A DNA stretch of 10,066 nucleotides from a virus (lineage: Duplodnaviria > Heunggongvirae > Uroviricota > Caudoviricetes): IMG/VR virus record IMGVR_UViG_2663763227_000008, positions 1-10,066 of that record. The stretch is one strand, 5' to 3'. A program made the position numbers and the translations under genes. Within the stretch, counting starts at the first letter, position 1. Every line of letters starts with the position of its first letter. The notes beneath the pieces are model-generated. The model was given only the letters and a program-made list of their open reading frames with translations, was not told the DNA's origin and did no database searches. Positions 588 through 9,025 of the stretch are shown in pieces.

Positions 588-1311
<724 letters not shown>

Positions 1312-1316
1312 TGAAA

Positions 1317-1343
1317 GGTCGCACAGAAGTGCGGCCTTTTTTT
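1317..1343 (+). terminator. Intrinsic terminator immediately 3' of cI
   Basis: ggtcgcac-agaa-gtgcggcc: 8-bp stem (one G-U), 4-nt loop, followed by seven T (1337-1343), starting 6 nt after the cI stop codon. Confidence 0.7.
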
Positions 1344-1441
1344 ATGATTAATATATATAAATATCAATAACATAAGCATGTTATATAGCAATTAACATAC
1401 CTATCTACAAACGAGGTATACATCAGCATTTGTTCAGTCAA

Positions 1442-1536
1442 CCTGCAAAACATCACATCTCCTGCGCATTTTTAATTCACCTGCTAATTTTACATTCTCC
1501 TGCACTTTTTTATTGCTCCTGCATCATTGTGGTGCT
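1442..1536 (+). repeat. Five tandem 19-bp direct repeats, each beginning CCTGC (iteron-like array)
   Basis: CCTGC at 1442, 1461, 1480, 1499, 1518 (exact 19-bp period). Units: cctgcaaaacatcacatct / cctgcgcatttttaattca / cctgctaattttacattct / cctgcacttttttattgct / cctgcatcattgtggtgct. Confidence 0.8.
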
Positions 1537-1543
1537 TTAATAT
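1513..1543 (+). promoter_or_regulatory. Candidate sigma70 promoter for the ParA-like gene (-35 TTGCTC 1513-1518; -10 TTTAAT/TAATAT 1536-1543)
   Basis: Hexamer-like matches at 17-19 bp spacing overlapping the last repeat unit, ~25 nt upstream of a strong SD aaaggagg (1553-1560). Pattern match only. Confidence 0.3.
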
Positions 1544-1567
1544 TCAAAATTTAAAGGAGGAATTCAT

Positions 1568-2611
1568 ATGAGCACTGTAGTTGAGTCAGTAATGGCACGC
1601 TATGCACAAGTTGTTGAGGAAGGTTACGTCGTAGATGGCGGGCCAAAATTCAAAAGTTATGCAGTTTCCAATCTGCGCGGTGGTGTTGGTAAGTCCACGA
1701 TGACATTCAACCTCGCCTATGAGCTGTCACGACGTAACTCCGTATTAGTGGCTGACTTATGCCCGCAATGTAATTTAACGGAGACACTATTGCGTGGTGA
1801 AAAACCGGTTGTAACAATAGCTAATGCACTGACACCAAAAATGCTGGGTCCAGCTTTTGGTGAGCAGCCAGAAGATATTTCATATCGAGTAAGTAATTTC
1901 TGCCCAGATTTTAAAGGTGGTAAGGCATGTTATGCGATTCCAGGTGATCCTGAGCTATTCGCTTTCCCATCAAGCATGTATCAACAACTACAAGTAGCGC
2001 TATCTCGCGGAGAACCAAAAGCAGTATCAACACTATTAAATTCTCTTCGCGCAATAATGAACGATGAAGCGAAAGACAAAAAATGCGAAATTTTATTGAT
2101 GGATACAAGCCCTTTCTATGCTGGAGGAACACACCTAGCATGGTGCGCGTCTGAGGCATTGATTATCCCTGTACGCGTAGATGAACACTCAATTGAGTCA
2201 CTTCATCTCACAATGGAAATGCTGGCAAATAAATCAAAAGATTTTGTATTATGGAATGAGCGTGCGGGTGGGCTTGGGGCTCCAAAAGTAGCAGCGATCG
2301 TAATGACAATGGCTGGTTCAAAAAGCCGTAAATCATCAACACCAGGTCGCGCATCTCAAATGTACATAGAGAGAGCTGTAAAAATCGCTGAAAAATACAG
2401 TCATCTCTTTGCCGATGAAGATGTTAGCAAAGCAATTGTGGTTACAGATGATTTTGTATCAAGCGGGCAAATTAGTGGGGCTGAAAGCATACCAATATCA
2501 CAGCTAAAAGTTGGTCGCTTCCATACAGTAAGTGAAGGGAAAAGGTTACAAGTTAACCAGTCGGTTACTCGATATCAAAGACAACTTAAGTATCTGGCAA
2601 GTATTCTTTAA
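1568..2611 (+). CDS. ParA/MinD-family P-loop ATPase-like protein (347 aa) occupying the rexAB-equivalent slot
   Basis: Strong SD aaaggagg 7 nt before the ATG. Motifs read from the translation: deviant Walker A AVSNLRGGVGKST (res 32-44), Walker A' VLVADLCPQCNLT (59-71), Walker B EILLMDTSP (174-182); ~100-aa C-terminal extension with no recognised motif. Confidence 0.85.
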   Translation: MSTVVESVMARYAQVVEEGYVVDGGPKFKSYAVSNLRGGVGKSTMTFNLAYELSRRNSVLVADLCPQCNLTETLLRGEKPVVTIANALTPKMLGPAFGEQPEDISYRVSNFCPDFKGGKACYAIPGDPELFAFPSSMYQQLQVALSRGEPKAVSTLLNSLRAIMNDEAKDKKCEILLMDTSPFYAGGTHLAWCASEALIIPVRVDEHSIESLHLTMEMLANKSKDFVLWNERAGGLGAPKVAAIVMTMAGSKSRKSSTPGRASQMYIERAVKIAEKYSHLFADEDVSKAIVVTDDFVSSGQISGAESIPISQLKVGRFHTVSEGKRLQVNQSVTRYQRQLKYLASIL

Positions 2612-2616
2612 GCAAG

Positions 2617-2644
2617 AACCCGGCCTCAGCGCCGGGTTTTCTTT
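2617..2644 (+). terminator. Intrinsic terminator 3' of the ParA-like gene
   Basis: aacccggc-ctcagc-gccgggtt: 8-bp stem, 6-nt loop, then T-rich ttttcttt; starts 6 nt after the stop codon. Confidence 0.7.
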
Positions 2645-2790
2645 GCCTAACCCCCCCAAAAAAACACATAACCAATTGTATTTATTTGAAAATTAATAGA
2701 TACAACTCACTAAACATAGCAATTCAGATCTCTCACCTACCAAACAATGCACCCCTGCAAAAAATAAATTCATATAAAAAACATACAGAT

Positions 2791-2851
2791 AACCATCTGC
2801 GGTGATGAATTATCTCTAGCGGTGTTGACATAAATACCACTAGCGGTGATA
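2791..2851. promoter_or_regulatory. Left operator: OL3 2791-2807, OL2 2811-2827, OL1 2835-2851
   Basis: aaccatctgcggtgatg / tatctctagcggtgttg / taccactagcggtgata; lambda-like 17-bp sites, each differing at one position from the lambda OL sequences as I recall them. Confidence 0.85.
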
Positions 2852-2853
2852 CT
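2825..2853 (+). promoter_or_regulatory. pL promoter (-35 TTGACA 2825-2830; -10 GATACT 2848-2853)
   Basis: ttgacataaataccactagcggtgatact, 17-bp spacing; same hexamers as lambda pL, overlapping OL2/OL1. Confidence 0.85.
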
Positions 2854-3101: not shown

Positions 3102-3485
3102 ATGACACGCAGAACTCAGTTCAAAGGCAATTCACGTTCTCGTCGTCGTGAGCTTTTAAAGGCAAAGGCATTAGCTAACGGCGTGCTGGCCCGCGAAGAA
3201 GCAATAAGTTCAGAAGTATTACACCGCCCTACTCTAAGCAGAGCGCAGATTCAGGCTAAAGGTACTCACGAAACGCCTGAGCGCATAGAAGACGCTAAGC
3301 CAATTAAGTTCATGGCACAGGACGTGATCTGGCAACAGAAAGAATACAGACGCAATCTGGAGCGAGCGGCCATTGTGTACGCGAATGAGTTTGGACATAA
3401 GCAACCAGAAACTGGTGTATGTCTTCCAAACGTAGCCATTTACGCGGCAGGCTACCGGAAATCAAAACAACTGACGGCGAGGTGA
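3102..3485 (+). CDS. N: N-family transcription antiterminator (P22 gp24-like)
   Basis: SD aggagg before the ATG; first gene after pL/nutL. N-terminal arginine-rich motif GNSRSRRRELLKAKALA; C-terminus LPNVAIYAAGYRKSKQLTAR resembles the P22 gene 24 product C-terminus as I recall it. Confidence 0.75.
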   Translation: MTRRTQFKGNSRSRRRELLKAKALANGVLAREEAISSEVLHRPTLSRAQIQAKGTHETPERIEDAKPIKFMAQDVIWQQKEYRRNLERAAIVYANEFGHKQPETGVCLPNVAIYAAGYRKSKQLTAR

Positions 3486-6671: not shown

Positions 6672-7486
6672 GCGAAATTGACTATCAGGCACTGCGTGCT
6701 AAGGCAGAGAAAGCAACGTGTGGTGCGTGGTCGCTCGAATATGGAGAGGGCCGATTTGATGGTGATGATGCGCTAATTCATCGCAAGGCTGCTGGATATA
6801 TTCCCATTTGCAGAATTGAAGGAGCGCATCCAGAAAGCGGTTTCGATGAAGATTTCCAAATGGAACAGCAGGCCAATGCTGAATTCATCGCCGCAGCCAA
6901 TCCGGCTACTGTGCTGGCGCTTCTGGATGAACGGGAAAGAAACCAGCAATACATCAAACGCCGTGACCAGGAGAACGAGGATATTGCTCTTACGGTTGGG
7001 AAGCTGAGAGTTGAGCTTGAGGAAGTAAAACAACACGCTGAAGAATTATCCGAAACCAAGGCTGTTCGTAACCAATGGCGGCCAGATATTTGCCCAATAA
7101 CCGGACGTGCATTTTTCATGTGGATTGAGCATCCAACATTGGGGAATGTGCCGACATATGGTGGCCCATTAGATAGTTACACCATTCCAACAAAGGACGG
7201 TGACGGTGAGTTTTCATGTGAGCGTTACGATCATGATTTTGGCGGTTGGGTAGAAAGCGAATGTCTTGGGTTATATCTGATTGATGATAGAGAACAATGC
7301 AGGGTCTACGAACTGGAGGAACGCGTTAAGGAACTGGATGCTCGGGAAATATCGCTCCCGGAACGTAGCAGCATGCTTCATCGAACAGATTTTCACGATG
7401 ATTACCAAACGGTAATGGCATACAAAGTTTCTGAAGTCATCGATGCAATCCGCGCTACTGGCATTCGCATCAAAGGAGGTGAGTAG
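6668..7486 (+). CDS. Ea22/Ead-like family protein (272 aa)
   Basis: GTG start with SD aaggagg and GTGA overlap with the upstream stop. N-terminus [16 protein letters not shown] and segment LLDERERNQQYIKRRDQENEDIALTVGKLRVELEE resemble Ea22-like prophage proteins from memory; central coiled-coil-like region. Confidence 0.5.
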   Translation: MSEIDYQALRAKAEKATCGAWSLEYGEGRFDGDDALIHRKAAGYIPICRIEGAHPESGFDEDFQMEQQANAEFIAAANPATVLALLDERERNQQYIKRRDQENEDIALTVGKLRVELEEVKQHAEELSETKAVRNQWRPDICPITGRAFFMWIEHPTLGNVPTYGGPLDSYTIPTKDGDGEFSCERYDHDFGGWVESECLGLYLIDDREQCRVYELEERVKELDAREISLPERSSMLHRTDFHDDYQTVMAYKVSEVIDAIRATGIRIKGGE

Positions 7487-7662
7487 TGCGTGTGGCATGT
7501 ATCGGCTTGTTACCGTACCCGACTCGTTTTTGGGCTTCTGCGCTAATTGCAAAGCCACATGTCCTGATGACTGACAACATCATCCCGGCACCAAAGCGCC
7601 GCCATACCGGTATTGCAGCGGCACGACGAGCAGCAAAGAGACGCAGGAGAGCAAAACGATGA
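7486..7662 (+). CDS. Hypothetical small basic protein (58 aa, GTG start), not in ORF track
   Basis: GTG overlaps the upstream TAG; Arg/Lys-rich C-terminus AARRAAKRRRRAKR; its stop overlaps the next ATG (ATGA). Supported only by coupling geometry. Confidence 0.25.
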   Translation: MRVACIGLLPYPTRFWASALIAKPHVLMTDNIIPAPKRRHTGIAAARRAAKRRRRAKR

Positions 7663-7835
7663 AAAACCGTAAAGCAAAATTACTTCTTTTATCGCGTTCG
7701 ACGGGGTACGAGAAGCTACCAATCAGCAATCACAAACGGGCGGTGATCGGCATGTTTGGTAGGGTGGTATTCGCATTTAACTATAAACCCACCGCGTCGC
7801 GTAACAGACGAGAGAAGGGGTACGCAGTGCGATGA
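7659..7835 (+). CDS. Hypothetical small protein (58 aa), N-terminus MKNRKAKLL, not in ORF track
   Basis: ATG overlaps the upstream stop; its first ~20 nt are duplicated at the start of the next ORF (7832). Confidence 0.25.
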   Translation: MKNRKAKLLLLSRSTGYEKLPISNHKRAVIGMFGRVVFAFNYKPTASRNRREKGYAVR

Positions 7836-8023
7836 AAAACCGTAAAGCTAAGATGCTTATCTCCCGTGTATACAGACTTTGCTATCCCAGCCAGTGGTTG
7901 AGAGTTAGCAATCGCTGTGTGGTGTTGTTTTCATTTTCTGGAATTGCCAGAGAGGGAATCAAAGATAAGCGCAGCGCGGCGCAAAACCGCTGGAAAAACC
8001 ACTTGCGCACTAAAGGAGCCTGA
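7832..8023 (+). CDS. Hypothetical small protein (63 aa), N-terminus MKNRKAKML
   Basis: ATG overlaps the upstream stop (ATGA); shares its 5' 19 nt exactly with the start of the previous small ORF. Confidence 0.3.
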   Translation: MKNRKAKMLISRVYRLCYPSQWLRVSNRCVVLFSFSGIAREGIKDKRSAAQNRWKNHLRTKGA

Positions 8024-8024
8024 T

Positions 8025-8234
8025 ATGGCTATTGCCGCAAGTTACACCATGCATCTCTATTGTGATTGCCTCCAGTGTACAGATGGCAAATATAAGTCGC
8101 CAGACTTCGGTGAGTATATAGGTACGTCATGGGCTGGCTGTGCAAAAGAGGCGCGCAAGGATGGCTGGCGAATAAGCAAAGACAAAACGCGTGCTTTTGC
8201 GCCCGGGCATAAAGTTTTGAGGATTAACAAATGA
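8025..8234 (+). CDS. Hypothetical Cys-rich small protein (69 aa; C-x-C-x2-C ... C, possible zinc-binding)
   Basis: SD aaggag 6 nt upstream of ATG 8025; translation MAIAASYTMHLYCDCLQCTDGKYKSPDFGEYIGTSWAGCAKEARKDGW...; the GTG-initiated extension from 7917 is rejected. Confidence 0.45.
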   Translation: MAIAASYTMHLYCDCLQCTDGKYKSPDFGEYIGTSWAGCAKEARKDGWRISKDKTRAFAPGHKVLRINK

Positions 8235-9025
8235 CCACTATAACCAAAGAGCGACTGCTGACAATCAAGCAGTGGCGCGAAACATACGGACCTGGTAGCA
8301 ACGTTGTACTGCCAGCAGAAGAAGCGGAAGAACTGGCACGAATTGCACTGGCATCGCTGGAACGCGAACAGATTCGCCACGAGCATGCCAAATGGTCTGA
8401 CTCCACATTTGGCTGCGTTGGCCCCATTGGTCCACTGAAACACCTCTCAAAAGAGGCTATGGAAACCGCAGCCGAACCAGACGATCTCAGCGAGTGGGCT
8501 GATATGCATTTCCTGTTGTGGGATGCACAGCGCCGTGCTGGCATCAGCGATGCTGAAATTACCGCTGCTATGGAAGATAAATTGAAGATCAACATGGAGC
8601 GCCAGTGGCCTGAACCAAAAGATGGTGAGCCTCGCTTGCACATTAAAGAACCCGGCAACTCTCCGGTAATTCCGGATGATTTATCCACGGTATGCGCTGA
8701 GGCTTATCAGGTTGTAGGAGTTATGGCAGATGCGCTTGGTGTATTCGGTGATGCAGCAGTACAGAAAGTTCTGGATAACCTGTCACAGCAAAAACTTGTT
8801 CACAGAGATGTGCTGCCGTTCTCGCTTCCGGTGACTCCGGATGGTTGGATAAGCTGTAGTGAGCGAATGCCCCCTCAAGATGATTGGATTTTAATTTATT
8901 CAAAGCACGGCGAGTATATGGCAGGACAGGTACAAGGGGAATACGTGGAGTTGAGCGACGGCACTTTATCGTGGTTAGGGAACGCCTTGTTCTGGATGCC
9001 GCTACCAGAACCGCCTCAGGGGTGA
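8231..9025 (+). CDS. DUF550-like (putative dNTP pyrophosphohydrolase-like) N-terminal domain fused to DUF551-like C-terminal domain (264 aa)
   Basis: ATGA overlap with the upstream stop. N-terminal region (MTTITKERLLTIKQWRETYGPGSNVVLPAEEAEELARIA ... WSDSTFG) and C-terminal region (GWISCSERMPP ... WMPLPEPP) resemble these prophage families from memory. Confidence 0.5.
   Translation: MTTITKERLLTIKQWRETYGPGSNVVLPAEEAEELARIALASLEREQIRHEHAKWSDSTFGCVGPIGPLKHLSKEAMETAAEPDDLSEWADMHFLLWDAQRRAGISDAEITAAMEDKLKINMERQWPEPKDGEPRLHIKEPGNSPVIPDDLSTVCAEAYQVVGVMADALGVFGDAAVQKVLDNLSQQKLVHRDVLPFSLPVTPDGWISCSERMPPQDDWILIYSKHGEYMAGQVQGEYVELSDGTLSWLGNALFWMPLPEPPQG

What the first reader, a model, noticed from the sequence alone, without database searches (positions are those of the whole stretch)
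1312..2650. Single-gene ParA/MinD-like ATPase cassette replacing rexA-rexB between cI and OL/pL
Seen: lambda-type cI ends at 1311 and lambda-type OL/pL begins at about 2791; between them lies one 347-aa ORF with ParA/MinD Walker motifs, its own AT-rich upstream region, a strong SD, and intrinsic terminators on both sides. Established: in lambda this slot holds rexA-rexB, a lysogen-expressed exclusion system, and the cI-proximal region of lambdoid prophages is a known site for accessory genes expressed from the prophage. Inference: this is a lysogen-expressed accessory module, most plausibly a superinfection-exclusion or anti-phage function built on a ParA-type ATPase. I am not aware of a described defence system of this architecture, and no ParB-like partner or other partition gene is present in the window.
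Basis: partly seen in the sequence, partly recalled or inferred. Interest (0 to 1): 0.85.

Follow-up and report, generated by a model that had tools for sequence, protein, structure and literature searches.

The report
Prophage ParA-like defence-type gene cassette
A lambda-type prophage carries, in place of rexA-rexB, a self-contained gene for an unusual ParA-like ATPase preceded by a phased array of CCTGCA boxes; a distant relative in the same prophage position was recently shown to block phages, so this is probably a new variant of that little-understood kind of defence.

Summary
cI ends at 1311, a 347-aa ParA/MinD-fold ORF runs 1568-2611, hairpin terminators flank the cassette, and OL/pL starts at 2792. 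No ParB is present.

Five CCTGC boxes sit at exactly 19-bp spacing (1442-1522), between the upstream terminator and a promoter whose -35 is fused to the last box.

The same box array, spaced 9, 19 or 28 bp, precedes the homologous gene in 68 of 73 loci from at least six phyla. Distant subfamilies carry different upstream repeats. The protein therefore most likely binds its own operator array.

The protein is under strong purifying selection. Arg replaces the ParA signature lysine and Cys replaces the catalytic aspartate.

The family is almost absent from 72,556 plasmids. It sits next to CI-type repressors in prophages, or rides as cargo in IS1-like transposons that otherwise carry restriction-modification-like, toxin-antitoxin and Schlafen-type genes.

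Its closest characterised relative is GiPD474 (24% identity over 308 aa; hhalign 99.7%). GiPD474 is a single ParA-like gene in the Gifsy-1 immunity region, shown in 2025 to block T4, FO1 and Alf5.

Verdict: a lysogen-expressed, autoregulated accessory module, probably anti-phage. It is a new variant of a recently described kind, and its function is untested.

The parts
598..1311 (+). Lambda-type cI repressor gene. This is the upstream boundary of the cassette, not part of it.
   Evidence: ORF of 237 aa. RefSeq annotates it as a LexA family protein in the matching prophages.
1313..1343 (+). Intrinsic terminator at the 5' edge of the cassette. It insulates the cassette from pRM/cI transcription.
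   Evidence: Terminator scan. Fold energy -19.3 kcal/mol, z -5.5. The same hairpin, GAGGTCGCAGAGATGCGGCCTTTT, precedes the array in other enterobacterial copies that have different upstream genes.
1344..1436 (.). AT-rich spacer of about 95 bp between terminator and array. It is absent from the other enterobacterial copies inspected. Function unknown.
   Evidence: Comparison of upstream regions. It contains short palindromes.
1442..1522 (+). Array of five CCTGC(A/G) boxes at exact 19-bp spacing, starting at 1442, 1461, 1480, 1499 and 1518. Proposed operator or assembly site for the encoded protein.
   Evidence: for the window. 68 of 73 homolog loci have at least 4 same-strand boxes upstream, mean 6.0 against 0.62 expected. 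Spacings are 19 bp (149 cases), 9 bp (79) and 28 bp (15). Phased clusters occur almost only upstream of this gene in 959 kb scanned.
1513..1541 (+). Putative sigma-70 promoter. The -35 TTGCTC (1513-1518) shares its last base with the last box, followed by a 17-bp spacer, TG at 1533-1534 and a -10 TTTAAT (1536-1541).
   Evidence: Read from the sequence. The same -35-fused-to-box layout with a 17-bp spacer recurs in enterobacterial and Pseudomonas copies. It falls below the threshold of the consensus scan, so it is inferred.
1554..1560 (+). Shine-Dalgarno sequence AAGGAGG, 7 nt upstream of the ATG.
   Evidence: Sequence.
1568..2611 (+). ParA/McdA-fold ATPase gene, 347 aa. Walker A is LRGGVGKS, with R37 in place of the signature Lys and K42 as the P-loop Lys. 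The A' region reads ADLCPQ, with C65 in place of the catalytic Asp. Walker B is D179.
2612..2645 (+). Lambda immunity-region terminator immediately after the stop codon. This is the 3' junction of the replacement.
   Evidence: Homology to the lambda rexB 3' end and annotated terminator from window 2610 onward. Fold energy -19.0 kcal/mol.
2792..2853 (+). OL operators and pL. This is the downstream boundary, not part of the cassette.
   Evidence: Operator repeats. Promoter scan finds TTGACA, 17 bp, GATACT.

Best explanation
The region is a self-contained, lysogen-expressed accessory cassette that replaced rexA-rexB. It consists of a terminator, an array of phased CCTGCA boxes overlapping its own promoter, one gene for a divergent ParA-type ATPase, and the lambda immunity terminator.

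Proposed mechanism:
1. The protein forms ATP-dependent dimers, as ParA proteins do. This is inferred from the fold.
2. Intrinsic ATP turnover is probably slow, because Cys replaces the catalytic Asp. This is inferred.
3. The protein binds cooperatively to the boxes, which lie on one face of the DNA at multiples of about 9.5 bp. This is inferred from the box array travelling with the gene across phyla and from different subfamilies having different upstream repeats.
4. Binding controls the protein's own promoter. Repression is the more likely sign, but this was not determined.
5. The cellular role is most likely protection of the lysogen against other phages, as shown for the distant homolog GiPD474 in the equivalent prophage position. 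How either protein stops a phage is unknown.

The cassette is not a plasmid-type partition system.
For: Anatomy:
- Window anatomy.
- The array lies between a terminator and the promoter, so it acts as DNA rather than as a transcript.

The array belongs with the gene:
- It is conserved in 68 of 73 loci from Gamma-, Beta- and Alphaproteobacteria, Myxococcota, Verrucomicrobia, Actinobacteria and Bacteroidota.
- It is essentially unique to that position.
- Distant subfamilies have other upstream repeats, for example 3-4 copies of TGATAGACAnnnnTGTCTATCA.
- No partner gene is conserved.

The protein:
- ParA/McdA fold.
- R37 and C65 align with Soj K15 and D44.
- Strong purifying selection.

Genomic niche:
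- 20 of 63 loci lie within 1.5 kb of a CI-type repressor, 14 of them directly downstream and co-oriented. One of these is a Pseudomonas lambdoid prophage.
- In the P2-like phage RsoM1USA the gene sits in the int-attP variable end.
- The gene is cargo in IS1-like transposons. The same transposon family elsewhere carries MTase-Mrr, SocA/Panacea, Schlafen and Bro-N genes.

Relative with a tested function:
- GiPD474 gives about 5 logs of protection against T4, Alf5 and FO1 and is highly expressed in the lysogen (PMC12724215).
- It is homologous to this ORF over 308 aa (BLASTP E 4e-20; hhalign 99.7%).
- This ORF scores 76.6 bits against GiPD474, more than any solved ParA does against it (29.9 bits or less).
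Against: - Identity to GiPD474 is only 24%. GiPD474 keeps the signature lysine and shows no box array, so function may not transfer.
- No phage-plating, expression or DNA-binding data exist for this family.
- PADLOC finds nothing real. This is weak evidence, because GiPD474 itself also returns nothing.
- The promoter is weak by consensus and was not found by the scan.
- The protein region that would read the boxes is not identified. There is no HTH-type N-terminal domain of the kind type Ia ParA proteins have.
- An array of 5-12 boxes is more than simple autoregulation needs, which hints at an additional role for the array.
Confidence: 0.55

Rival explanations
1. It is a one-protein partition or tethering system. 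The box array would be a centromere, and the ParA-like protein would bind both the array and the nucleoid. This would keep an unintegrated or excised element in both daughter cells.
For: - ParA/McdA fold, a fold shared with proteins that bind DNA non-specifically.
- Arrays of short direct repeats upstream of parA that overlap its promoter are typical of type Ib partition loci. This rests on established knowledge of TP228 parH, pB171 parC and pSM19035.
- The array is longer than autoregulation requires.
Against: - No close homolog occurs in 72,556 plasmids. The only hits are five Aeromonas plasmids at 30-32% identity.
- The carriers are integrated prophages with integrase or excisionase, or transposons.
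- No ParB or adaptor is present.
- The catalytic Asp needed for the ParA ATPase cycle is replaced by Cys.
Confidence: 0.12
2. It is a regulator of the mobile element that carries it. It would control the transposase promoter in the IS1-like elements, and lysogeny or immunity-region transcription in prophages.
For: - In the transposon copies the boxes lie in the divergent promoter region between the transposase and the ATPase gene. Sometimes they occur in both orientations, as in L014, L019 and L021.
- In prophages the gene is often adjacent to CI or Cro.
Against: - Phased box clusters occur only upstream of the ATPase gene, with none elsewhere in a 41-kb prophage.
- The upstream terminator insulates the cassette from cI transcription.
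- The module also sits far from any repressor, for example after int-attP in RsoM1USA.
- Most elements of the same IS family lack it.
Confidence: 0.12
3. It is a selfish addiction or stabilisation module. The tightly autoregulated protein would become harmful when the element is lost or when its regulation is disturbed.
For: - It shares transposon cargo bays with toxin-antitoxin pairs (SocA/Panacea) and restriction-modification-like genes.
- The multi-box control suggests the dose must be kept low. This is inference.
Against: - No antitoxin-like partner or RNA is present. The array is not transcribed with the gene, and Rfam finds nothing.
- GiPD474 was expressed from a plasmid without reported toxicity.
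Confidence: 0.08
4. It is an accessory transposition ATPase of an IS1-like transposon, analogous to MuB, TnsC or IstB. The prophage copies would be captured remnants.
For: - The gene lies inside elements bounded by GGTAGTGGGTCAGTTTGA inverted repeats, with an 8-bp target duplication in L010.
- The minimal element, L020 (2.39 kb), contains only the transposase and this gene.
- A distant subfamily member, L136, sits in the same IS family.
Against: - Of 80 metagenomic loci carrying the same inverted repeat, none has the gene. Six have the transposase with other cargo.
- The prophage copies lack any transposase yet are intact and under strong purifying selection.
Confidence: 0.03

Closest known systems
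GiPD474 (Gifsy-1 prophage defence protein of Salmonella Typhimurium 4/74; PMC12724215)
   Same: - Single ParA/MinD/Soj-like (AAA_31) gene of similar length, 361 against 347 aa.
- Co-oriented and just downstream of the prophage repressor in the immunity region.
- Shares the D-x-C-P-Q motif, with Cys at the catalytic Asp position.
- Homologous over about 300 residues, including the region beyond the ParA core.
- A GiPD474-like gene (36% identity) and a member of this family sit in the same IS1-like transposon, L082.
   Different: - Only 24% identity.
- GiPD474 keeps the canonical NKGGVGKT signature lysine.
- No CCTGC box array or other obvious repeat array lies upstream.
- GiPD474 DNA is not found in 5,426 complete E. 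coli genomes.
- Its anti-phage activity is measured. The activity of this ORF is not.
Type Ib partition ATPases and relatives (Soj, ParF, pSM19035 delta, McdA)
   Same: - P-loop Lys and Walker B Asp are present.
- A repeat array upstream overlapping the promoter resembles type Ib centromere/operator regions.
- McdA likewise lacks the signature lysine.
   Different: - No ParB, ParG, omega or McdB partner.
- About 100 extra residues.
- Arg at the signature position and Cys at the catalytic Asp.
- Not on plasmids.
- Sequence similarity is confined to about 50 N-terminal residues.
Type Ia ParA/SopA (P1, F)
   Same: An ATPase that also binds repeated operator motifs in its own promoter and autoregulates. 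This is a resemblance in how it works, based on established knowledge.
   Different: - Those proteins use an N-terminal HTH domain of about 100 aa. Here only about 28 residues (one helix) precede the P-loop strand.
- They need ParB/SopB and a separate centromere.
Lambda RexA-RexB
   Same: Same slot between cI and the immunity terminator. Expressed from the prophage. Exclusion function.
   Different: Unrelated proteins. Rex is two genes transcribed with cI from pRM. This cassette is insulated from cI by a terminator and has its own promoter.

Membership tests
ParA/MinD (SIMIBI) P-loop ATPase superfamily | Walker A GxxxxGK[ST] and Walker B Asp on the MinD/ParA fold | tested here: met
   [not shown]
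ParA/MinD (SIMIBI) P-loop ATPase superfamily | Deviant Walker A signature lysine (KGGxGK) | tested here: not met
   R37 is invariant in the family and aligns with Soj K15.
ParA/MinD (SIMIBI) P-loop ATPase superfamily | Catalytic Asp of the A'/switch I region (Soj D44, MinD D40) | tested here: not met
   C65 is invariant in the close family; distant subfamilies mostly carry Cys, occasionally Ser. It aligns with position 44 of Soj D44A.
ParABS-type partition system | Adjacent centromere-binding partner gene (ParB, ParG or ParR) | tested here: not met
   No conserved neighbour other than repressors and an IS1-like transposase in 71 loci. None in the window.
ParABS-type partition system | Residence on a low-copy extrachromosomal replicon | tested here: not met
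   Chromosomally integrated prophages. No close homolog in PLSDB plasmids.
ParABS-type partition system | Cis-acting centromere repeats | tested here: inconclusive
   A repeat array exists. Whether it acts as a centromere was not testable.
GiPD474-type prophage ParA-like defence proteins | Full-length homology to GiPD474 | tested here: met
   BLASTP E 4e-20 over 308 aa at 24% identity. hhalign 99.7% over 303 columns. The authors' own family cut-off of at least 70% identity is not met, so this is a sister family.
GiPD474-type prophage ParA-like defence proteins | Single gene in the prophage immunity region beside the repressor | tested here: met
   Window. 14 loci lie directly downstream of a CI-type gene.
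GiPD474-type prophage ParA-like defence proteins | Reduces plating of phages when expressed | not testable with these tools
   Needs plating assays.
Catalogued defence systems (PADLOC-DB 2.0.0) | Significant match to a system protein model | tested here: not met
   The only hit is a P-loop-only match to PDC-M28B, E 0.0011 over 36 residues. GiPD474 also has no match, so this test has little power.
Type III toxin-antitoxin (repeat RNA upstream of toxin) | Tandem repeats transcribed with and upstream of the protein gene | tested here: not met
   The array lies between a terminator and the promoter -35. Only an 8-bp core is conserved, and spacing is 9, 19 or 28 bp.

The most novel reading that the evidence does not exclude
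The CCTGCA-box array and its ATPase could form a new kind of one-protein, DNA-anchored immune switch. A hydrolysis-impaired ParA-type dimer would be held on a phased array that doubles as its operator, and would be released or re-targeted when an infecting phage disturbs the nucleoid or the ATP pool. If so, this would give the first mechanistic handle on the whole GiPD474-like ParA superfamily. It would also explain why the module has kept its cis-array across at least six phyla while moving between prophage immunity regions and IS1-like transposons.
Probability: 0.2. Interest if true: 0.8.

Novelty: new variant of a known kind. Interest (0 to 1): 0.6.

Why it matters
ParA-type ATPases are known as positioning motors that need a partner protein. 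Here one works alone.

**What is unusual.** Two catalytic hallmarks are replaced, and the gene is tied to a conserved DNA array. It sits in places where mobile elements keep defence and addiction genes.

**Why it is tractable.** One distant relative (GiPD474) gives about 5 logs of protection against T4, and nobody knows how. This family offers a defined DNA ligand, invariant residues to mutate (R37, K42, C65) and natural subfamilies with different operators. That makes the mechanism directly testable.

**Wider points.**
- The rexAB slot of lambda-immunity phages is exchanged by exact cassette replacement.
- The same cassette travels across phyla in IS1-like cargo transposons.

Tried and rejected
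1. **Type III TA-like reading of the repeats as RNA.** Rejected. The array sits between a terminator and the promoter, only a short core is conserved, and Rfam finds nothing.
2. **ParA-like gene as a core transposition ATPase of the IS1-like element.** Rejected. Of 80 loci with the same terminal repeat, none has the gene.
3. **Plasmid or phage-plasmid partition gene.** Rejected. The family is absent from PLSDB and from sequenced phages except the integrating phage RsoM1USA.
4. **Family libraries.** PADLOC, NCBIfam and PHROGs gave only generic ParA labels or sub-threshold hits.
5. **Search for a conserved partner gene by all-against-all clustering of neighbours.** None found. The two large antisense clusters are artefacts of the conserved gene itself.
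6. **Search for further box arrays in the prophage.** None found.
7. **Literature.**
   - Searches for the protein accession, ISMhu11 and ParA-like defence found nothing beyond GiPD474 and the bare annotation in the RsoM1USA paper.
   - Brenes and Laub 2025 on E. coli prophage defences could not be read. This exact family could have been tested there.
8. **Structure searches.** They did not identify the fold of the roughly 100 extra residues or a DNA-reading element.
Full report
**1. The observation**

The window is a lambda-immunity region read in the opposite orientation to the standard lambda map.
- cro lies on the minus strand at 297-497.
- cI lies at 598-1311.
- A 347-aa ORF lies at 1568-2611.
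- OL/pL lies at 2792-2853.
- An N-family gene lies at 3102-3485.

The ORF has a strong ribosome-binding site, AAGGAGG, 7 nt before the ATG. It matches Pfam AAA_31 (2.8e-13) and CbiA (1.4e-9).

Stable hairpin terminators flank the cassette.
- The upstream one is at 1313-1340 (-19.3 kcal/mol, z -5.5).
- The downstream one is just after the stop codon (-19.0 kcal/mol).

From position 2610 onward the sequence is 92% identical to the end of lambda rexB plus the annotated immunity terminator. The cassette therefore replaces rexA-rexB exactly, from the cI stop codon to the rexB stop codon. The window has no ParB-like gene.

**2.

The upstream region holds five CCTGC boxes at exactly 19-bp spacing, starting at 1442, 1461, 1480, 1499 and 1518. 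A three-box pattern with this spacing never appeared in 200 shuffles of the window.

I collected homologous loci from species-representative genomes, IMG/VR viral contigs and contig look-ups.
- 68 of 73 loci have at least four same-strand boxes in the 300 bp upstream of the gene.
- The mean is 6.0 boxes on the gene strand, against 0.64 on the other strand and 0.62 expected from local composition.
- Spacings are quantised: 19 bp in 149 cases, 9 bp in 79 and 28 bp in 15. The core reads (C/T)(A/T)CCTGC(A/G), often followed by a T-run.
- The loci come from Gamma-, Beta- and Alphaproteobacteria, Myxococcota, Verrucomicrobia, Actinobacteria and Bacteroidota.
- In 959 kb of collected sequence, phased clusters of three or more boxes occur essentially only at this position. 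A 41-kb prophage has just one.

**3. The array acts as DNA, not RNA**

Enterobacterial copies with different upstream genes all begin with the same terminator hairpin, GAGGTCGCAGAGATGCGGCCTTTT.

The last box is fused to a -35 element, TTG(A/C)TC. A 17-bp spacer follows, then a TG-extended -10. Pseudomonas and other copies repeat this layout, sometimes with another box inside the spacer.

In the window the elements are:
- -35 at 1513-1518;
- TG at 1533-1534;
- -10 at 1536-1541.

The array therefore lies between a terminator and the promoter and is not part of the mRNA. This rules out a type III toxin-antitoxin-like reading. Rfam finds nothing in the window. The promoter is weak by consensus and the scan did not flag it, so it remains inferred.

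**4. Who binds the boxes**

No partner gene travels with the module. Clustering all neighbouring ORFs from 71 loci gave only two recurrent neighbours, CI/Cro-type regulators and an IS1-like transposase.

More distant subfamilies, at 31-36% identity, have different upstream repeats.
- One has three or four copies of the palindrome TGATAGACAnnnnTGTCTATCA.
- Another has CATGCCCTGC.
- Another has AGGTCAA motifs.

A cis-element that follows the gene across phyla and changes with the protein subfamily is most simply explained by the protein recognising it. This is inference, and no binding assay exists. An ATPase that binds repeats in its own promoter has precedent in type Ia ParA and SopA. Those proteins use an N-terminal HTH domain, which this protein lacks.

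**5. The protein**

The AlphaFold model is confident, with pLDDT 87 and pTM 0.89. It is a ParA-type fold.
- About 240 of the 347 residues align.

The family is tight and distinct.
- Among 1.84 billion representative proteins, only 840 score E ≤ 1e-3 and only 35 score E ≤ 1e-30.
- Members from different phyla are 57-65% identical over the full length.

This conservation reflects constraint rather than recent spread. Against enterobacterial homologs that are 84-86% identical in protein, synonymous sites are saturated (pS about 0.8) while pN is about 0.11.

Two ParA hallmarks are replaced.
- R37 stands where Soj has the signature lysine K15.
- C65 stands where Soj has the catalytic D44.
- R37 is invariant in the close family but varies in distant subfamilies. 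The Asp-to-Cys change is the more widely shared family trait, with Ser in a few distant members.

By analogy with Soj D44A and MinD D40A, the protein may hold ATP and stay dimeric for a long time. This too is inference.

**6. Where the module lives**

In E. coli it is rare. Five of 5,426 complete genomes carry it, always in the order cI then this gene. The protein is identical in prophages with different repressors and replication modules. All five prophages are integrated in the chromosome.

Across 63 less redundant loci:
- 20 have a CI-type repressor within 1.5 kb, 14 of them directly upstream and co-oriented;
- 11 have an IS1-like transposase.

A Pseudomonas chlororaphis lambdoid prophage has the same repressor-then-ATPase order. 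In the P2-like Ralstonia phage RsoM1USA the gene sits after int-attP at the variable genome end. The published description only annotates it.

The family is essentially absent from 72,556 plasmids. The only hits are five Aeromonas plasmids at 30-32% identity. This argues against a partition role.

**7. The transposon connection**

In environmental bacteria the gene sits inside elements bounded by the inverted repeat GGTAGTGGGTCAGTTTGA.
- L010 has perfect 20-bp repeats and an 8-bp target duplication, TTCATTTT.
- L020 is a minimal 2.39-kb element with only the transposase and this gene.
- L019, L021, L025, L082 and L136 are larger.

The boxes lie in the divergent region between the two genes, sometimes in both orientations.

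I tested whether the ATPase is a core part of this transposon family by scanning metagenomes for the repeat alone.
- None of 80 loci had the gene.
- Six had the transposase with other cargo.
- Many were solo repeats or miniature elements.

The gene is therefore a passenger. Other passengers bounded by the same repeats are:
- methyltransferase-Mrr fusions;
- a Schlafen/AlbA_2 protein;
- SocA/Panacea antitoxin pairs;
- DUF6941, Bro-N and P63C proteins.

This is cargo of the conflict and defence type.

**8. The closest characterised relative**

A November 2025 paper (PMC12724215) describes GiPD474, a single ParA/MinD/Soj-like gene in the Gifsy-1 immunity region beside the repressor, Cro and CII.
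- Deleting it restores Felix O1 plating.
- A low-copy clone gives about 5 logs of protection against T4 and Alf5 in E. coli.
- It does not protect against T7, SP6 or S16.
- It is highly expressed in the lysogen.
- Its mechanism is unknown.

I recovered its sequence from the knockout-primer arm.
- It is homologous to this ORF over 308 residues at 24% identity (BLASTP E 4e-20).
- A profile of the family matches it at 99.7% probability over 303 columns.
- GiPD474's best match among solved structures scores only 29.9 bits, against 76.6 bits between it and this ORF.
- The two share the D-x-C-P-Q motif.
- One transposon, L082, carries a GiPD474-like gene (36% identity) together with a member of this family.

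The differences matter.
- GiPD474 keeps the signature lysine.
- It has no evident box array.
- It falls outside the authors' own 70% identity family cut-off.
- PADLOC 2.0.0 recognises neither protein, so that negative result carries little weight.

**9. Verdict**

The cassette is a real, selected, self-contained prophage accessory module. I put about 0.8 on the protein binding its own phased box array and regulating itself. I put about 0.6 on an anti-phage role, based on a distant but full-length homolog with measured activity in the same niche and on the company the gene keeps in transposon cargo bays.

Partition, element regulation and addiction remain minority alternatives.

What appears new, as far as the accessible literature shows, is:
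- this separate family;
- its Arg and Cys substitutions;
- its cross-phylum operator array;
- its spread through IS1-like cargo transposons.

One caveat remains. Brenes and Laub 2025 could not be read.

Noticed in passing
L010:4230-7209; L020:25-2413; L019:4970-8169; L021:3382-7469; L025:3462-7097; L082:4852-8662; L136:888-4598: A family of IS1-like cargo transposons shares terminal inverted repeats GGTAGTGGGTCAGTTTGA, with an 8-bp target duplication TTCATTTT in L010. It occurs in Verrucomicrobia, Alphaproteobacteria, Mycobacterium and Myxococcota. Its cargo includes MTase-Mrr fusions, SocA/Panacea pairs, a Schlafen/AlbA_2 protein, and DUF6941, Bro-N and P63C proteins. Many solo repeats and miniature derivatives exist, for example at L153:9744-9812 and L161:1472-1592.
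   Followed up: partly
L082:4868-5911 and 7001-8089: One transposon carries two different ParA-like genes flanking the transposase. One is a GiPD474-like gene with canonical KGGVGKS (36% identity to GiPD474). The other is a member of the RGGVGK family studied here.
   Followed up: partly
L135, L137, L138, L139, L140 (about 200 bp upstream of the match start): A distant subfamily with an FRGGIGKS Walker A motif, about 33% identical, has three or four copies of a 20-bp palindrome TGATAGACAnnnnTGTCTATCA upstream instead of CCTGC boxes. A single similar half-site, CATAGACAAATA, lies just upstream of gipd474 at L269:5697-5708.
   Followed up: partly
window:1344-1436: An AT-rich stretch of about 95 bp with short palindromes lies between the cI-proximal terminator and the box array. 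The other enterobacterial copies inspected lack it; there the array follows the terminator within 20-40 bp.
   Followed up: no
L003:7814-7838: In the Pseudomonas chlororaphis prophage a run of CCT triplets (CCTCCTCCTCCTCCTCCTCCTCCTC) lies immediately upstream of the box array.
   Followed up: no
L040:562-604 and L042:563-605 (minus strand): This is the only phased three-box CCTGC cluster found away from the gene, about 5.4 kb upstream and on the opposite strand. It could be chance or a second site.
   Followed up: no
window:3102-9025: The pL operon is a lambda/P22 mosaic. It contains an N-family antiterminator of 127 aa, DUF7446, an ERF recombinase, P22 Abc2 (anti-RecBCD), two Ead/Ea22-like proteins, and a dATP/dGTP pyrophosphohydrolase fused to DUF551 (8231-9025).
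   Followed up: partly
PDB 3pg5 (DIP2308, Corynebacterium diphtheriae): This uncharacterised 361-aa ParA-like structure is the best PDB sequence match of GiPD474 and a top structural match of this ORF. It may belong to the same wider group.
   Followed up: no
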